In this document: one piece after another, positions 5,961-49,287 of the stretch
Position numbering within the stretch: the first letter of the stretch is position 1
How the letters are laid out: every line of letters starts with the position of its first letter
NCBI RefSeq assembly: GCF_055900595.2
Contig: NZ_CM148325.1
Strand: one strand, 5' to 3'
DNA: 64,000 bases
Position numbers and translations under genes: made by a program
Notes under the pieces: generated by a model
The model's database searches: none
What the model was told of the DNA's origin: nothing
The model's input: the letters and a program-made list of their open reading frames with translations, nothing else

Positions 5961-6992
5961 ATGATAAAACTTTCGAATATCACCAAAGTGTTCCACCAGG
6001 GCACCCGCACCATCCAGGCGTTGAACAACGTCAGCCTGCATGTGCCAGCTGGACAAATTTATGGCGTTATCGGTGCCTCAGGCGCGGGTAAAAGTACGCT
6101 TATCCGTTGTGTAAACCTGCTGGAGCGCCCAACCGAGGGTAGCGTGCTGGTCGATGGTCAGGAACTTACCACGCTGTCAGAATCCGAGTTGACCAAAGCT
6201 CGCCGCCAGATTGGTATGATTTTCCAGCATTTTAACCTGCTCTCTTCGCGCACTGTTTTTGGCAACGTGGCACTGCCGCTGGAGCTGGACAACACGCCGA
6301 AAGACGAGATTAAACGTCGCGTGACAGAATTACTGTCATTGGTTGGTCTTGGCGATAAGCATGATAGTTACCCGTCTAACCTTTCCGGTGGGCAGAAACA
6401 ACGTGTGGCGATTGCCCGTGCGTTAGCCAGCAATCCCAAAGTATTGCTGTGTGATGAGGCCACCAGCGCGCTGGACCCGGCAACAACACGTTCTATTCTC
6501 GAACTGCTGAAAGACATCAATCGTCGTCTGGGTTTGACGATTCTGTTGATCACCCACGAAATGGACGTTGTGAAGCGCATTTGTGATTGCGTGGCGGTGA
6601 TCAGTAATGGCGAGTTGATCGAGCAGGACACGGTAAGTGAAGTGTTCTCGCATCCGAAAACGCCGCTAGCGCAGAAGTTTATTCAGTCGACCCTGCATCT
6701 GGATATCCCGGAAGACTATCAGGAACGACTGCAAGCGGAACCATTCGCTGACTGCGTGCCGATGCTGCGTCTGGAGTTTACCGGTCAATCGGTCGATGCC
6801 CCGCTGCTTTCTGAAACCGCGCGTCGTTTCAACGTCAATAACAACATTATTAGCGCGCAGATGGATTACGCCGGTGGCGTTAAGTTCGGCATCATGCTGA
6901 CTGAAATGCACGGCACACAACAAGATACGCAAGCCGCCATTGCCTGGCTGCAGGAACACCATGTAAAAGTAGAGGTACTGGGTTATGTCTGA
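5961..6992 (+). CDS. metN: Methionine ABC transporter ATP-binding protein
   Basis: 343-aa ORF; Walker [13 protein letters not shown] signature LSGGQKQR, C-terminal NIL-type domain; followed by permease and lipoprotein genes. Confidence 0.95.
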
Positions 6993-30661: not shown

Positions 30662-32014
30662 TCATAACCGAGAGAAATCATTGAAAAGTGCAAGCCCCAT
30701 TAACAGCACCAGCAGAATCGAGCCAATGCGATAACAAAAGTCTTGAACCCGCTCGGATACCGGTCCGCCCTTGATCTTTTCGATCGCAAGGAACAGCAGA
30801 TGCCCCCCATCAAGTACGGGCAACGGAAACAGGTTAATTATCCCTAAGTTCACGCTAATGAGCGCAAGAAACGGCAGGTAATAAACAACCCCGAGTTCCG
30901 CTGTCATCCCAGCCCCCTTGGCGATAGAGATCGGCCCACTGAGGTTGTTCAGTTTCACATCACCGGTGATCAATTTTCCCAGCATACTGACCGTCAGCTT
31001 CATCAGCTGCCACGTTTTGTCCGTGGCTTCGACGATAGCGTTGAACGGCCCATACTGGCGTACAACTTTATACTCATCTGGCAAAGGAATGACTTTCTGC
31101 TCAATACCGACAAAACCAATCGCCTTACCATTACCCGGTTTACTCTCCGGGATTAATGTCAAAGACAAGGGACTCCCCTGTCTTTCGATTTCTAACGCTA
31201 AGGATTTACCCGGGTTATCCCGGACAAGCATCACAAAGGTCACCCACTGCGTTAAGGACTGACCATCGACTTTAACGATCCTGTCGCCTGCTTGCAAACC
31301 TGCCTTGCTTGCGGCCGAGTTTGGCTGCACATTTTCCAGTACAGGTTCAATTTGCGGGCCACGAGGACGAATCCCCAGCGAAGATACCGGATCTTCTTTA
31401 TCAGGCTCAAACGCCCAGTGACGTAAATCGAGCTTTACATCCCGTCGTTGGTCGCTGCCAAATGGCGCTACCGTAATGGTGGTGCTTTCATCGCCAATTT
31501 TATCGACCAACTGCAAACGCACGGCATCCCAATCAGGCGTTTCGATACCATCTACGGCTTTTAGTTCCGTACCTGGTGCAATTTGTGCTTCCGCAGCTAT
31601 CGAATTGGCTGCTATTTCGCCAACCACCGGACGTACGCCAGGTACACCAATAATAAAAACCAGCCAGTAGGCAAAGATAGCAAAAATGAAGTTTGCAACC
31701 GGACCTGCGGCAATAATCGCCGCACGTTGGCCGACAGATTTATTATTGAAGGCATGGTGGCGGAGTTCCGGAACAACCGGTTCTGCGCGCTCATCCAGCA
31801 TTTTGACATAACCGCCCAACGGGATCAGGGCGATGACATATTCGGTGCCTAGCTTATCAGTTCGGCGCCAGAGCGCCTTGCCAAAACCTATTGAGAAACG
31901 CTCAACACGAACACCACAACGCCGGGCAACCCAGAAATGACCAAATTCATGCACGGTGATAAGTACACCCAGTGCAACGATGAACGAAGCCAAATCCCAG
32001 AGAAAACTCAGCAT
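30662..32014 (-). CDS. rseP: Site-2 protease RseP (regulator of sigma-E)
   Basis: ORF track 30662..32059; start placed at [11 protein letters not shown] (450 aa); HEFGH zinc motif and PDZ region. Confidence 0.93.
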
Positions 32015-32025
32015 ATTACCTTCCG

Positions 32026-32883
32026 TTAAAGCGTCCTGAATACCAGTAACAACAAGCAAGCAAAGACCGGTACCGCAGCCGTCAGACTATCAATACGATC
32101 TAAAATACCACCGTGTCCTGGAATTAAATGACCGCTGTCCTTAATTCCTGCTTCACGCTTAAACATACTCTCGGTCAGATCGCCGAGCACTGAGACTAAC
32201 GCTGCGACAATAGAGCAAATGAGTAAGGTGACGGGAGCGATGTCGAGATTCGCCCACATGCCATAACCCCATGAGATTACCGCTGCAGTCGCGAGTCCAC
32301 CGATAAAGCCTTGCCAGGTTTTACCCGGAGAAACCTTCGGTGCCAGCTTATGTTTACCAAACAATTTGCCAAACATATATGCGCCAGAGTCAGCGCCCCA
32401 TACCAGGATCATGACATAGAGCAGCCATATTGCGCCACTGTAATGATTCTCGTCGTAGTGCCAGGCCCGTAACGCCAGCATGCCCCAGAAGAAGGGAACA
32501 ATGGTTAGCACGCCAAAAATAATGCGCAATGTTTTAGAGTTACGCCAGATTGCTGCGGAACCTGGGTAAAACAGCACCAGCAATAGCGCGACAATCCACC
32601 AACCCAGCGAAGCCCAAAGTGAGATTTCAACCAGCGGTTGATGAATATTTCGGTGATATTCCGGCAACAGAAAAAGCATCAGCGCCAACAATAACCCACA
32701 TAACACCGCCAACCATACTCGCTGCGAGCGAGTGGTAAAACCGCTAAGCTGTCCCCATTCCCACGCTGCCAGCATACAGACCACCAGCGTTACAATGGCG
32801 AACCCCACCGGCGGCAACAGAAACAACGCCGCGATGACGACGGGTATTAACACAAAAGCAGATATCAGGCGATACTTCAGCAA
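32026..32883 (-). CDS. cdsA: CDP-diglyceride synthase
   Basis: 285-aa polytopic membrane ORF. Confidence 0.94.
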
Positions 32884-32895
32884 AAGCGACCCCCA

Positions 32896-33657
32896 TCAGG
32901 CTGTTTCATCACCGGGCTCGGTGCCGCCGAAACGACGCTCTCGATTAGCAAAGGCATTTAACGCCCCTTCAAAGTCTTGTTCATCGAAATCGGGCCAGAG
33001 AACATCTGTAAAGTAAAGTTCGGCATAGGCAATTTGCCAAAGCAAAAAGTTACTAATGCGATGCTCCCCCCCAGTCCTAATTACTAAATCTACAGGGGCC
33101 AGTTCATGCATACAGACATGCTGGTTTAGCATCTCTTCATCTATCTGATCTGGTTGCAGGTTTCCTTGCTGCACCTTTTCAGCCAGTTGCCTGACTCCCT
33201 GGACTATATCCCAACGTCCACCGTAGTTCGCCGCAATATTCAGCGTTAGACCGGTATTTCCGGCTGTTAGCGCTTCCGATTTACGAATACGTTCTTGCAA
33301 ACGCGAGTTAAAGCGACTGGTATCGCCAATAATACGCAGACGTACGTTATGTCGGTGCAGGCTTTTTACTTCGCTATCGAGCGCCCAAACAAACAGTTCC
33401 ATTAACGCACTGACTTCCTGCGCTGGTCGGTTCCAGTTTTCACTACTAAAGGCATACAGCGTTAACGCCTCAATACCGTTGTTGGCCGCAAAAGAGACAG
33501 CCCGGCGGACGGATTTTGCCCCGGCTTTATGCCCAAAGGCACGAATCTTCCCTTGCTTTTTTGCCCAGCGACCATTGCCGTCCATAATGATCGCAACATG
33601 ACGACAGCCATGTACTGGCAATTTTTCGCTAAGTGGTTGAGTAGCAGACAACATCAC
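32896..33657 (-). CDS. uppS: Undecaprenyl-diphosphate synthase
   Basis: 253-aa ORF with cis-prenyltransferase motifs (DGNGRWA). Confidence 0.95.
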   Translation of the reverse strand: MMLSATQPLSEKLPVHGCRHVAIIMDGNGRWAKKQGKIRAFGHKAGAKSVRRAVSFAANNGIEALTLYAFSSENWNRPAQEVSALMELFVWALDSEVKSLHRHNVRLRIIGDTSRFNSRLQERIRKSEALTAGNTGLTLNIAANYGGRWDIVQGVRQLAEKVQQGNLQPDQIDEEMLNQHVCMHELAPVDLVIRTGGEHRISNFLLWQIAYAELYFTDVLWPDFDEQDFEGALNAFANRERRFGGTEPGDETA

Positions 33658-46215: not shown

Positions 46216-47640
46216 TTACTGCATTAACAAGTAGATGGTGCTGTCGCCGCGCTGAATGTTCAGTGCCAGCACAGACGGTTTGCTGTCGAGAACTTTACGC
46301 AGTTCAGCGATGTTTTTCACTGCCTGCTGGTTCGCACCAATAATCACATCACCTTTCTTCAGGCCGATCTGCGCAGCTGGAGTGCCCGTTTTCACGTTGT
46401 TCACCACCACGCCCTGATCTTTGCCTTTGTTGCTCATCTCAGCGCCTTCAATGCCGTTGAAGATGGTGCTGGAATCAACCTGATTCTGGCTGCTCTGCTG
46501 CAGTTCCAGGTTCACGTTAACCTGCTTCCCGTCGCGCAGTAAGCCCAGGGTCAGTTTGCTGCCTACCGGCATAGTGCCCACCTGAGCACGCAGTGCGGCA
46601 AAGCTGCTGATTGGCTTACCGTTCAGTGAGGTGATCACATCACCCGCTTTAATGCCCGCTTTCGCGGCGGAAGAATTCGGCAGAACCTGGCTTACGAAAG
46701 CACCGCGCTGGGCGTCAACTTTCATCGCTTTCGCCAGATCGGAGTTCAGCTCAGTCCCCATAATACCCAGCTCACCGCGTTTCACCTGGCCGTATTCCAC
46801 CATCTGCGAGGTCAGGTTTTTCACCATGTTACTCGGGATAGCAAAACCGATACCGATGTTGCCGCCGTCCGGTGCGAGGATCGCGGTGTTGATACCGATC
46901 AGTTCGCCGTTCAGGTTAACCAGCGCACCACCGGAGTTACCACGGTTGATCGCAGCATCGGTCTGGATGAAGTTTTCATAGTTTTCGGCATTCAGACCGC
47001 TACGCCCCAGCGCAGAGACAATCCCGGAAGTTACTGTCTCGCCCAGGCCGAACGGGTTACCAATTGCTACGGTGTAATCACCCACGCGCAGTGCATCAGA
47101 ATCCGCCATCTTAATTGCGGTCAGGTTTTTCGGATTCTGGATCTGGATCAGCGCGATATCAGAGCGCGGATCTTTGCCAACCATCTTCGCGTCGAACTTA
47201 CGACCATCGCTCAGCTGGACTTTAATCACCGTCGCGTTATCAACAACGTGGTTGTTGGTGACGACATAGCCTTTATCGGCATCAATGATGACGCCGGAAC
47301 CCAGCGCCATGAATTTTTGTTGCTGGCCGCCGCCATTACCGCCCTGGCCCCCCTGGCAGAACGGAGAGCTCTGGAACGGAGAACCTTCCTGGCAGAACGG
47401 AGAATCATCACCGAAGAACTGCTGGAAATTACGCGGCATACGCGGCGTATTAACGGTTGTGCTACCTTCTACGTTAATGCTGACCACTGAAGGCATCACC
47501 TTTTCGAGCATTGGTGCAAGGCTTGGTATCTGCTGGGCTGTCGTTGCTGAAGAAGTCTCAGCCGCCGTTGCAGAGAGCGGAGATAACGCCAAACCTAAAC
47601 TCAGAGCCAGTGCACTCAGTGCTAATGTGGTTTTTTTCAT
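46216..47640 (-). CDS. degP: Periplasmic serine endoprotease / chaperone DegP (HtrA)
   Basis: 474-aa ORF; signal peptide, trypsin-like protease domain with GNSGGAL active-site motif, two PDZ domains. Confidence 0.96.
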   Translation of the reverse strand: MKKTTLALSALALSLGLALSPLSATAAETSSATTAQQIPSLAPMLEKVMPSVVSINVEGSTTVNTPRMPRNFQQFFGDDSPFCQEGSPFQSSPFCQGGQGGNGGGQQQKFMALGSGVIIDADKGYVVTNNHVVDNATVIKVQLSDGRKFDAKMVGKDPRSDIALIQIQNPKNLTAIKMADSDALRVGDYTVAIGNPFGLGETVTSGIVSALGRSGLNAENYENFIQTDAAINRGNSGGALVNLNGELIGINTAILAPDGGNIGIGFAIPSNMVKNLTSQMVEYGQVKRGELGIMGTELNSDLAKAMKVDAQRGAFVSQVLPNSSAAKAGIKAGDVITSLNGKPISSFAALRAQVGTMPVGSKLTLGLLRDGKQVNVNLELQQSSQNQVDSSTIFNGIEGAEMSNKGKDQGVVVNNVKTGTPAAQIGLKKGDVIIGANQQAVKNIAELRKVLDSKPSVLALNIQRGDSTIYLLMQ

Positions 47641-47685
47641 GTATTTCAGTCTCGATTAACAGATAACGCAAAATTGCTGTGTTCT

Positions 47686-47713
47686 TCAGATTCGTTTTAT
47701 AGCGCGAAGTTCC
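47686..47713 (-). promoter_or_regulatory. Sigma-E-type promoter of degP
   Basis: Minus strand GGAACTT (47713-47707) - 16 nt - TCTGA (47690-47686), matching the sigma-E consensus about 45 nt upstream of the degP start codon. Confidence 0.6.
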
Positions 47714-47769
47714 GAACTAAAGTTTCTGCAAAAGGTAAAAATTTATTGTTCGTCTTTACAAAAGCCTGG

Positions 47770-49287
47770 TTATTGTTCTACGGCCATCAGACGTCGGTAT
47801 TCATCCCAGGCATAGAGGTCGGTCATACCGCTGATATAATCCTGCAGCAGGCGGCAACGGTAATAATATTCCCATAGCGGAAACTCAGGAGAATCTGACG
47901 GTAATTTACTGACAGCCTCGACATAGGCCAGCCGATGGCGCGTCGAGAGTTTGTGGAATAAGCGCGATTCAATAGGGAAACGTTTCACCCGTTCTTTTTC
48001 TACCAGTTCAGTAAAGTCTGATAACGACAGGCTTAATAAAGGGCGATAAATCTCTAATAATCCGCTAATGACCCGATAGCCCTGCAATTCAAGCTGCTCG
48101 ACATCTGGATGGCTAAACACATGTTTTACAGCGACATTTTTATATAGCTTTAGAAGATCGCTGCATTCGCTGGCATCTTCCAATAATGCATGATTAAACG
48201 TTCCGGCGAAAATCGCAGGCAGATTATCAATAAATCGTTGTGCCGCGTAGGGTACCAGTTTATTTAGGGTGTTTACCCGTAAATACATAAAAAACTGATC
48301 TTCCGTACTGCGGCTTAAACTATTTGAGCGTGATTTTTCCCAGGCATTTTCAACCACCAGCGAAAAGAGCGAACCTTTCTCATGCTGGCCCCACGCTTCG
48401 TGCAAATGATGATAAAGCTGCTCAACGCTGAATATTCTTTTCTCTACCGCATCTTCAAGATCTGCCACACAATAGGAGATGTCGTCGGCAGCTTCCATAA
48501 TCCACGTTAATGGAAAACGACTGTAAAGCGCCAAATTAAGTTCTTTACGCAACCGGGCAATATAAGCTTCTTCAGAAAGATAATAACCCGGCTTTTTCAT
48601 TAAATAGTGATGTGTCTCAGGCGTTTCGCCACGCCACCACGCCGGACGGGTATATTTTAAAATACCGCCAACCTGTGCCCAGGTGAGATTCATCCGCATC
48701 AATGTATGCACCAGACGAATACCTTGTGCATTCCCCTCAAAATGGCATAAGTCCTGACGAATTTTGCGCCGCAGTTCGTTAAGCGGTTCTTCCCCTTCCC
48801 GTAAACGTAATGCCACCACGCAGCAGCGATCGTCAGTCAGAGGCTGGCTTTCGGCATCAGCCGGAAACAAACGCTGGCGAAACCAGTCATTTATCGCCGC
48901 TTCACCAAAATGGCCAAACGGCGGATTGCCGATATCGTGCATCAGGCATGACATCTCAACAATACTTTCAAAGGGGCCGGTCAGTTCATCCAGACCATAA
49001 TCTTCCAGTAATTTAAGCTCTTTCAGACGGCTTAAAATTTCTTTGGCGATGTAGCGCCCCACCTGCTGGACTTCCATTGAATGGGTTAGACGCGTGCGCA
49101 CGGCGGCATTTCGCTCCAGCGGAAAAACCTGGGTCTTTTGTTGCAGACGACGAATTGCCGGAGAGTTGATAATACGTCCGCGATCGCTCTCAAAGATTCG
49201 CAGGATCTCATGTTCGGTTTTAACGCCCTGTGGTGAACGGTAACGACGATGCCAGTTTATTTTTTTTCGGAAATCAATCTGTGCCAT
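47770..49287 (-). CDS. dgt: dGTP triphosphohydrolase
   Basis: 505-aa ORF with HD-domain motifs ([13 protein letters not shown]). Confidence 0.95.

What the first reader, a model, noticed from the sequence alone, without database searches (positions are those of the whole stretch)
47641..47769. Sigma-E-type promoter readable upstream of degP
GGAACTT - 16 nt - TCTGA on the minus strand is a near-consensus sigma-E promoter, about 45 nt upstream of degP, consistent with its envelope-stress regulation. An AT-rich stretch containing GTAAA lies further upstream where CpxR sites would be expected.
Basis: partly seen in the sequence, partly recalled or inferred. Interest (0 to 1): 0.3.

Follow-up and report, generated by a model that had tools for sequence, protein, structure and literature searches.

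The report
Known sigma-E promoter of E. coli degP
This is the well-known envelope-stress (sigma-E) promoter of the E. coli periplasmic protease gene degP, with its upstream CpxR-associated block and a known RNA thermometer in the leader, so the reading is correct but ordinary.

Summary
The interval 47641..47769 is the whole dgt–degP intergenic region of E. coli. On the minus strand, GGAACTT (47713..47707), a 16-nt spacer and TCTGA (47690..47686) lie 45 nt before the degP ATG (47640). The exact motif is unique in the window (0.01 expected by chance).

- **Start site:** a published start-site map of K-12, whose sequence differs only at two spacer bases, puts +1 at window 47680. That places the T and C of TCTGA at -10 and -9, the bases sigma-E binds.
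- **Conservation:** the motif is present at the same place in all 79 other Enterobacteriaceae species examined. It is more conserved (0.95–0.97 identity) than the surrounding non-coding DNA (0.78).
- **CpxR:** It is not a canonical tandem site (6.2 bits, chance level). However, it sits in the most conserved non-coding block, GTAAA-N15-TTTAC.
the 40-nt leader is the Rfam HtrA RNA thermometer (77 bits), predicted to be weaker here than in Salmonella.

Verdict: interpretation supported, already known, low interest.

The parts
47735..47760 (-). Most conserved non-coding block, TGTAAAGACGAACAATAAATTTTTAC. It contains the curated CpxR box degP1 (GTAAAGACGAACAAT, 47759..47745), the left GTAAA (47759..47755), an invariant CAATA (47748..47744), and an inverted GTAAA (TTTAC on the minus strand; 47735..47739 read on the plus strand). 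It spans -80..-55 relative to +1.
   Evidence: PMC9600279 Table S1 lists the box. A leave-out PWM scores it only 6.2 bits. In 80 species TGTAAAG, CAATA and TTTAC are 100% invariant, and the block ranks 1 of 104 among 26-nt non-coding windows.
47715..47744 (-). A/T-tract region at -64..-35 relative to +1 (AAATTTT, TTTT, AAA, TTT). [quoted passage not shown]
   Evidence: Subsite definitions come from PMC3326320 and the A/T-rich UP description from PMC1312014. The sequence was read. The 56 nt upstream of the -35 box are 68% A+T.
47707..47713 (-). Sigma-E -35 element, GGAACTT (7/7 to consensus).
   Evidence: Consensus from PMC1312014 and PMC6648896. Identity across 80 species is 0.966, tied for top rank among 7-nt non-coding windows. 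Variants are GGAACTA in 13 species and TGAACTT in 6.
47691..47706 (-). 16-nt spacer, CGCGCTATAAAACGAA. It differs from K-12 (CAGGCT...) at 47705..47704. It contains TAAAAC (47699..47694), where Salmonella and Klebsiella have TAAAAT, a sigma-70-type -10 hexamer for their second start site.
   Evidence: Alignment to K-12. Spacer length is 16 nt in 74 of 80 species. Start-site data for the relatives come, and the spacer variants.
47686..47690 (-). Sigma-E -10 element, TCTGA. T47690 is at -10 and C47689 at -9, the two non-template bases that sigma-E region 2 captures in pockets.
   Evidence: Structural basis from PMC6648896. Identity across species is 0.945–0.954. TCTGA occurs in 67 of 80 species, with TCTTA, TCTCA and TCTAT in the rest.
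47680..47680 (-). Transcription start (+1, A), after the 5-nt discriminator AGAAC (47685..47681).
   Evidence: The K-12 start site is 180844 with a 40-nt leader (PMC3415461 supplement). The A is invariant in 80 species. The Rfam thermometer model begins at this base.
47635..47680 (-). 5' leader, matching Rfam RF02700 HtrA fourU RNA thermometer. The hairpin spans 47676..47647. The UUUU run (47673..47670) pairs with the Shine-Dalgarno GAGA (47653..47650), C13 is bulged (47668), and C at 47649 creates an A·C mismatch relative to the Salmonella-type consensus.
   Evidence: 77 bits against a gathering score of 52, over the full model. Experimental work in Salmonella is in PMC5602114. Pair counts are and energies.
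46216..47640 (-). degP (htrA) coding sequence, 474 aa, the gene this promoter drives.
   Evidence: ORF list. RefSeq annotation of matching genomes reads 'serine endoprotease DegP'.
47895..47909 (-). Second curated CpxR box, degP2 (GTAAATTACCGTCAG). It lies inside the dgt coding sequence, outside the finding's interval, at -269..-255 from the degP ATG.
   Evidence: PMC9600279 Table S1. The PWM scores it 12.3 bits, within the top 10 of the window. It is not conserved outside Escherichia, at 0.55 identity.

Best explanation
The interval is the regulatory region of degP (htrA), with three layers of control.

1. Sigma-E promoter. RNA polymerase carrying the envelope-stress sigma factor sigma-E (RpoE) binds GGAACTT through sigma region 4. 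After a 16-bp spacer it opens the DNA at TCTGA by capturing non-template T-10 and C-9 in sigma region 2. Transcription starts at the A at 47680, giving a 40-nt leader. The positions, spacing, start site, conservation and regulon membership are shown here or in cited work.

2. Upstream block. The A/T-rich, highly conserved block at -80..-55 carries the curated CpxR-P site degP1 and overlaps the positions where the RNA polymerase alpha subunits contact UP elements. Phosphorylated CpxR bound there raises transcription under Cpx-type stress, most likely by helping the sigma-E holoenzyme. This step is inferred from literature and conservation; binding was not tested here.

3. RNA thermometer. [quoted passage not shown] Family membership is shown by score. 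Function in this E. coli variant is inferred, and the hairpin is predicted to be weaker than in Salmonella.
For: - **Motif:** coordinates and uniqueness.
- **Locus identity:**
- **Similarity to K-12:** only two spacer bases differ.
- **Start site:** the mapped K-12 start is 180844 with a 40-nt leader, equal to window 47680.
- **Geometry rules:** 16-nt spacer, 5–6 nt discriminator, purine start, A/T-rich upstream region.
- **Structural basis:** T-10 and C-9 pockets and GGAACTT recognition.
- **Experimental sigma-E dependence:** degP is in the tested sigma-E promoter set and active at basal sigma-E; it is induced 56-fold on rpoE overexpression; Salmonella sigma-E ChIP-seq has a peak at htrA carrying the consensus.
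- **Conservation:** the motif is present in 79 of 79 other species. Identity is 0.966 for the -35 box and 0.945–0.954 for the -10 box, against 0.78 for the non-coding mean.
- **CpxR:** degP rose 26.6-fold in cpxA24 and 32.4-fold with NlpE overproduction, falling to 6.4-fold without cpxR. The block ranks 1 of 104 for conservation.
- **Thermometer:** Rfam match of 77 bits starting at +1; SHAPE and reporter data in Salmonella.
Against: - The -10 box matches TCAAA at only 3 of 5 positions, and the G of GTC is an A.
- The CpxR box scores 6.2 bits, and 149 positions in the window score as well or better. It lacks a second GTAAA in direct repeat.
- A CpxR ChIP-exo study lists degP as a RegulonDB target but not among its own detected direct targets.
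- CpxR overexpression alone did not induce degP.
- The species set is limited to Enterobacteriaceae with DegP at least 83% identical, so the conservation contrast is moderate.
- The thermometer hairpin shows no covariation above shuffles, folds no better than shuffled sequence, and is predicted weak in this sequence.
- No experiment was done on this particular strain.
Confidence: 0.93

Rival explanations
1. The upstream conserved A/T-rich block works mainly as a UP element contacted by the RNA polymerase alpha subunits, or as the site of another protein, rather than as a CpxR site. The GTAAA would then be incidental.
For: The box is at chance level by PWM. A- and T-tracts fall in all three alpha subsites. 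Sigma-E promoters generally carry A/T-rich UP sequences. degP was not recovered as a direct CpxR ChIP-exo target.
Against: The invariant part (TGTAAAG, CAATA, TTTAC) extends to -80, beyond the -64 limit of the UP subsites. UP elements are described as tract-based rather than sequence-specific, which does not explain base-by-base invariance. The site is curated from De Wulf 2002, and degP induction depends strongly on cpxR. The two roles are not mutually exclusive.
Confidence: 0.15
2. A second, sigma-70-type promoter overlaps the sigma-E promoter. It would use the TATAAAA(C/T) in the spacer as its -10 hexamer and start at the G of TCTGA (window 47687). It would supply basal or CpxR-driven degP transcription in this strain, as htrA p2 does in Salmonella.
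For: Salmonella has a 47-nt-leader start site in addition to the 40-nt one. K. pneumoniae has a start on the G of TCTG with more reads than the sigma-E-compatible start. TAAAAT lies at exactly -12..-7 of that start. The TATAAA core is conserved at 0.8–1.0.
Against: E. coli and this window have TAAAAC, losing the critical final T. Only the 40-nt start is listed for K-12. The consensus scan finds no sigma-70-like promoter on this strand. No usable -35 hexamer is present.
Confidence: 0.12
3. The motif is a chance match, and degP is really transcribed by read-through from dgt or from a promoter inside dgt.
For: No terminator-like site lies between dgt and degP. Salmonella has a long-leader start inside dgt. 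A stronger CpxR box lies inside dgt.
Against: The exact motif is expected 0.01 times per window. The start site maps 5 nt after the -10 box. The motif is conserved in 79 of 79 species. degP is strongly sigma-E dependent. Read-through may add transcripts but does not replace the promoter.
Confidence: 0.02

Closest known systems
E. coli K-12 degP (htrA) promoter degPp: sigma-E dependent and CpxR activated
   Same: Same locus. The 200 bp around the promoter are identical except for two bases. The -35 box, -10 box, spacing, start position, leader and CpxR box degP1 are all the same.
   Different: Spacer bases 47705..47704 read GC here and AG in K-12. The window allele is the majority in E. coli (about 4034 against 1389 genomes) and is also the commonest in other genera, so the K-12 form looks derived. 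No functional difference is known.
Salmonella enterica htrA regulatory region (promoters p1, p2, p3 plus the fourU thermometer)
   Same: The orthologous sigma-E promoter gives a 40-nt leader, and the thermometer hairpin is of the same family.
   Different: Salmonella has TAAAAT in the spacer and a documented 47-nt-leader start, whereas this window has TAAAAC and K-12 shows only the 40-nt start. Salmonella has U at leader position 32 (an A-U pair) where this window has C (A·C), giving a predicted hairpin of about -3.0 against -6.8 kcal/mol at 37 °C.
Consensus sigma-E promoters such as rybB, micA and rpoE P2 (GGAACTTTT - N16 - GTCAAA)
   Same: The same -35 core, the 16-nt spacer, T-10 and C-9, a short discriminator, a purine start, and A/T-rich upstream DNA.
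   Different: The degP -10 box is ATCTGA rather than GTCAAA, and the -35 box is followed by CG rather than TT. degP also has an activator site upstream, which most sigma-E promoters lack.
Canonical CpxR-P sites such as cpxP, ppiA and yccA (GTAAA-N5-GTAAA direct repeat)
   Same: A GTAAA pentamer upstream of a Cpx-induced envelope gene, listed in the same curated table.
   Different: There is no second direct-repeat GTAAA: the box reads GTAAA-N5-ACAAT and scores 6.2 bits, against a median near 14 bits for the training sites. Instead an invariant inverted GTAAA lies 15 nt downstream.

Membership tests
Sigma-E (RpoE) dependent promoter | -35 element GGAACTT | tested here: met
   A 7/7 match at 47713..47707. 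Consensus.
Sigma-E (RpoE) dependent promoter | Spacer of 15–19 nt between GGAACTT and the -10 pentamer, with 16 nt preferred | tested here: met
   16 nt, and 16 nt in 74 of 80 species.
Sigma-E (RpoE) dependent promoter | -10 element with T-10 and C-9 (GTC / TCAAA) | tested here: met
   TCTGA has T at -10 and C at -9 relative to the mapped +1. The match to TCAAA is only 3 of 5, and the G of GTC is an A.
Sigma-E (RpoE) dependent promoter | Transcription start 5–6 nt after the -10 element, preferably a purine | tested here: met
   The K-12 start site 180844 corresponds to the A at 47680, after a 5-nt discriminator. This rests on a published map of a sequence identical in this part, not on this strain.
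Sigma-E (RpoE) dependent promoter | Transcription depends on sigma-E holoenzyme | not testable with these tools
   Literature only: degP is in the tested promoter library, is induced 56-fold by rpoE overexpression, and the Salmonella ChIP-seq has a peak at htrA.
Sigma-E (RpoE) dependent promoter | Conservation of the boxes at orthologous genes in related genomes | tested here: met
   Present in 79 of 79 species. Box identity is 0.95–0.97 against 0.78 for the non-coding mean.
CpxR-P binding site (GTAAA-N5-GTAAA) | Two GTAAA-like pentamers in direct repeat, 5 (4–8) nt apart | tested here: not met
   The box reads GTAAA-GACGA-ACAAT. The leave-out PWM gives 6.2 bits, and 149 window positions score as well or better. 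It is nevertheless the curated degP1 site.
CpxR-P binding site (GTAAA-N5-GTAAA) | Location upstream of a Cpx-regulated promoter, and evolutionary constraint | tested here: met
   It lies at -79..-65 from +1. GTAAA is invariant in 80 species, and the block ranks 1 of 104.
CpxR-P binding site (GTAAA-N5-GTAAA) | CpxR-P binds the DNA and the gene responds to Cpx activation | not testable with these tools
   Literature: strong cpxR-dependent induction. Against this, degP is not among the ChIP-exo direct targets, and CpxR overexpression alone gave no induction. The original footprint paper (Pogliano 1997) is not held.
Rfam RF02700 HtrA 5' UTR thermometer (fourU type) | Covariance-model score above the gathering threshold over the full model | tested here: met
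   77 bits against 52, model positions 1–46 of 46, at 47680..47635.
Rfam RF02700 HtrA 5' UTR thermometer (fourU type) | Hairpin pairing UUUU with the Shine-Dalgarno sequence, with a single bulged C | tested here: met
   U8–U11 pair with G28–A31 and C13 is bulged. One consensus pair is A·C here. In 53 species 74.6% of cells pair in register, against 30–55% when slid, but there is no covariation above shuffles.
Rfam RF02700 HtrA 5' UTR thermometer (fourU type) | Temperature-dependent opening and translation | not testable with these tools
   This is shown for Salmonella. For this sequence the prediction is a weak hairpin: about -3.0 kcal/mol at 37 °C, with Shine-Dalgarno pairing probability 0.3–0.6 at 30 °C.

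The most novel reading that the evidence does not exclude
The invariant architecture upstream of the promoter is not a degenerate direct repeat. It is an inverted pair of GTAAA pentamers, 20 bp centre to centre (GTAAA-N15-TTTAC), around an invariant CAATA, kept base for base in 80 species. This could mean that CpxR-P engages degP in a non-canonical geometry: two oppositely oriented dimers, each using one strong and one shared weak half-site. Alternatively, an additional unidentified factor may bind there. Either reading would also explain why PWM scans and some ChIP experiments under-call this classic target.
Probability: 0.12. Interest if true: 0.35.

Novelty: already known. Interest (0 to 1): 0.1.

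Why it matters
It matters little as a discovery. degP was among the first sigma-E-dependent genes described, and its dual sigma-E/Cpx control is textbook material.

The value here is as a positive control. A reader with no tools located a real, experimentally mapped promoter to the base, and the follow-up reproduces the published start site, regulon membership and conservation.

Three small residual points could interest specialists:
- the invariant inverted GTAAA pair;
- the E. coli-specific C at the position that gives Salmonella and Klebsiella a second, overlapping start site;
- the E. coli-specific C that weakens the leader thermometer.

Together they suggest modest lineage-specific retuning of degP control.

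Tried and rejected
- **Primary papers not held.** Lipinska 1988, Pogliano 1997 and Thomason 2015 could not be fetched, and Rhodius 2006 was unavailable by PubMed id and DOI. Rhodius 2006 was later read by PMC id, but its promoter tables are not held, and neither are the supplements of Rhodius 2011.
- **CpxR PWM does not discriminate.** A PWM built from 39 curated sites, leaving out the degP boxes, did not separate the intergenic box from background. PWM support for CpxR was dropped in favour of conservation.
- **degP2 box set aside.** The stronger degP2 box inside dgt was considered as the main CpxR site, but it is not conserved beyond Escherichia.
- **No rival promoter or terminator.** A sigma-70 consensus and terminator scan of 47400..48100 found nothing on the degP strand.
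- **No structural support from folding.** MFE folding of the leader gave no signal (z = +1.0), and pair counting gave no covariation. Thermometer membership therefore rests on the Rfam score and published experiments.
- **Other sigma-E-like hits are intragenic.** These lie in metN, rseP, dnaE, bamA and tsf, and were not pursued.
- **Coordinate caveat.** The ungapped comparison with strain Z0117EC0005 is only 90% identical because of small indels. Gene coordinates taken from that record were rechecked on the window where they were used.

Full report
**The observation.** Reading the minus strand gives GGAACTT at 47713..47707, a 16-nt spacer (CGCGCTATAAAACGAA, 47706..47691) and TCTGA at 47690..47686. 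Exactly 45 nt follow before the ATG at 47640. The flanking ORFs are a 474-aa protein at 46216..47640 (-) and a 505-aa protein at 47770..49287 (-), so the finding's coordinates are exactly the intergenic region. The exact pattern is unique in the 64 kb window, with 0.01 expected from shuffles. Loosened patterns are at chance level. Of seven relaxed hits, only this one lies in an intergenic region just upstream of a gene.

**Identity of the locus.** The 401 bp around the site match 5424 of 5426 complete E. coli genomes, annotated as dgt (dGTPase) and degP (serine endoprotease DegP). The 129-bp intergenic region is at least 99% identical in 4034 genomes, with many 100% matches. K-12 differs only at two adjacent spacer bases, CAGGCT against CGCGCT here. 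The K-12 allele occurs in about 1389 genomes. The window allele is also the commonest in other genera, so the K-12 form looks derived. The window runs from mrcB/fhu through dgt-degP to rseP-bamA-skp-lpxD, nlpE, rcsF and rrnH.

**The sigma-E promoter.**
- Published descriptions give a -35 motif GGAACTTTT and a -10 motif (T/C)GGTCAAAA. They also give a strongly preferred 16-nt spacer, a 5–6 nt discriminator, a purine start and A/T-rich upstream DNA (PMC1312014; PMC1804206).
- The cryo-EM structure shows non-template T-10 and C-9 held in pockets of sigma region 2 (PMC6648896).
- A genome-wide start-site map of K-12 lists one degP start, at 180844, with a 40-nt leader and upstream sequence ...GGAACTTCAGGCTATAAAACGAATCTGAAGAACA (PMC3415461 supplement). 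This is the A at window 47680, five nt after TCTGA. It puts T47690 and C47689 at exactly -10 and -9.
- degP belongs to the 60-promoter sigma-E library tested in vitro and in vivo, and is among the promoters active at basal sigma-E (PMC3326320).
- It was the most strongly induced gene on rpoE overexpression, at 56-fold (PMC2731931).
- Sigma-E ChIP-seq in Salmonella recovers htrA with the consensus (PMC4577112).
- 'Near-consensus' is exact for the -35 box and the geometry. It is looser for the -10 box, where ATCTGA stands against GTCAAA.

**Phylogenetic footprint.** I fetched degP loci from 80 Enterobacteriaceae species, with DegP 83–99% identical. A motif of this type is present at the same relative position in all 79 usable loci:

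| Element | Variants (of 80, including the window) |
|---|---|
| -35 box | GGAACTT 61, GGAACTA 13, TGAACTT 6 |
| Spacer length | 16 nt in 74, 17 nt in 6 |
| -10 box | TCTGA 67, TCTTA 7, TCTCA 3, TCTAT 3 |

In a MAFFT alignment made independently of that scan, identity to the window is 0.966 for the -35 box and 0.945–0.954 for the -10 box. The spacer is at 0.81 and the non-coding region as a whole at 0.78. The A at +1 is invariant.

**The CpxR remark.**
- A curated table of 41 CpxR sites, mostly from De Wulf 2002, lists degP1 = GTAAAGACGAACAAT, which is window 47759..47745. It also lists degP2 = GTAAATTACCGTCAG, which is window 47909..47895, inside dgt (PMC9600279).
A PWM built from the other 39 sites gives degP1 only 6.2 bits, and 149 positions in the window do as well. 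degP2 scores 12.3 bits, within the top 10.
- Conservation reverses that ranking. degP2 is not conserved outside Escherichia (0.55 identity). The block 47760..47735 is the most conserved 26-nt stretch of the non-coding region, ranking 1 of 104, with TGTAAAG, CAATA and TTTAC invariant in all 80 sequences.
- The conserved architecture is an inverted GTAAA pair separated by 15 nt, not the canonical direct repeat.
- The block overlaps the A/T tracts at the alpha-subunit subsites, so a UP-element role is a partial rival.
- The functional literature is mixed but mostly supportive. degP rose 26.6-fold in cpxA24 and 32.4-fold with NlpE, dropping to 6.4-fold without cpxR. CpxR overexpression alone did not induce it, which those authors attribute to limiting sigma-E. 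A ChIP-exo study did not list it among its detected direct targets.

The leader at 47680..47635 matches Rfam RF02700, the HtrA 5' UTR thermometer, at 77 bits (gathering score 52) over the full model, beginning exactly at +1.
- It is a fourU hairpin: UUUU (47673..47670) pairs with the Shine-Dalgarno GAGA (47653..47650), with a bulged C.
- It was characterised by SHAPE and reporter assays in Salmonella (PMC5602114).
- In this window, and in K-12, leader position 32 (47649) is C instead of U, making an A·C mismatch.
- The predicted hairpin energy at 37 °C is about -3.0 kcal/mol against -6.8 kcal/mol. Predicted Shine-Dalgarno pairing at 30 °C is 0.3–0.6 against at least 0.97.
- Across 53 distinct sequences, 74.6% of cells pair in register, against 30–55% when slid, but covariation equals the shuffle mean. 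The leader folds no better than shuffled sequence.
- Membership is therefore by score and orthology. Function in E. coli remains to be shown with the sources available to me.

**Other start sites in relatives.** Salmonella htrA has three documented starts, giving leaders of 40 nt (stress-induced), 47 nt, and 215 or 449 nt from inside dgt.
- The 47-nt start falls on the G of TCTGA. K. pneumoniae has a start at the same relative position, with more reads than its sigma-E-compatible start.
- That start has TAAAAT at -12..-7 in those species. E. coli and this window have TAAAAC (C at 47694), and only the 40-nt start is listed for K-12.
- No sigma-70-like promoter or terminator is found on this strand by consensus scan.
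- I infer that the overlapping promoter is weak or absent here. This is an inference, not a result.

**Verdict.** The feature is the already known degP promoter, so novelty is nil and interest is low. The residual curiosities are the inverted GTAAA pair and the two E. coli-specific base changes, one affecting the second start site and one affecting the thermometer. All three are minor and testable.

Noticed in passing
window 47635..47680 (-): The degP leader is a full-length match to Rfam RF02700, the HtrA fourU RNA thermometer (77 bits against a gathering score of 52), and the match starts exactly at the mapped +1.
   Followed up: yes
window 47649 (-): E. coli, including K-12 and this window, has C where the thermometer consensus and Salmonella have U, giving an A·C mismatch in the lower stem. 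The hairpin is predicted at about -3.0 against -6.8 kcal/mol at 37 °C, with much lower Shine-Dalgarno occlusion at 30 °C.
   Followed up: partly
window 47694..47699 (-), and 47687: The sigma-E spacer holds TAAAAC where Salmonella and Klebsiella have TAAAAT. In those species a second mapped start site lies 7 nt downstream, on the G of TCTGA. E. coli K-12 shows only the sigma-E start, so the overlapping sigma-70-type promoter may be disabled here by one base.
   Followed up: partly
window 47735..47760 (-): GTAAA and an inverted GTAAA 15 nt apart, with a central CAATA, are invariant in all 80 Enterobacteriaceae sequences. They are more conserved than the sigma-E boxes, and the arrangement is not the canonical CpxR direct repeat.
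   Followed up: partly
window 47895..47909 (-), inside dgt: The curated CpxR box degP2 (GTAAATTACCGTCAG) scores well by PWM (12.3 bits) but is not conserved outside Escherichia (0.55 identity, about the level of dgt third-codon positions). It lies about 40–55 nt upstream of where the Salmonella 215-nt-leader start would fall.
   Followed up: partly
window 47704..47705 (-): There is a two-base spacer polymorphism relative to K-12: GC here, AG in K-12. The window allele is in about 4034 complete E. coli genomes and the K-12 allele in about 1389. The window form is also the commonest in other genera.
   Followed up: yes
window 31541..31568 (-), inside rseP: A sigma-E-like motif, GGAACTA-N16-TCGAA, lies inside rseP, 909 nt upstream of the bamA start (30632). 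I did not determine whether it corresponds to a known internal promoter of the rseP-bamA-skp-lpxD cluster.
   Followed up: no
window 6161..6187 (+), inside metN (5961..6992): GGAACTT-N15-TCCGA, a perfect -35 motif with an acceptable -10 box, lies inside the metN coding sequence with no gene start within 400 nt downstream. It is probably a chance match.
   Followed up: no
window 32995..33022 (-): CGAACTTTACTTTACAGATGTTCTCTGG is a two-mismatch match to the degP-type pattern. By position it is upstream of the cdsA ORF (32026..32883) and inside the gene that precedes it, which is ispU by synteny with the annotated genome. It was not evaluated further.
   Followed up: no
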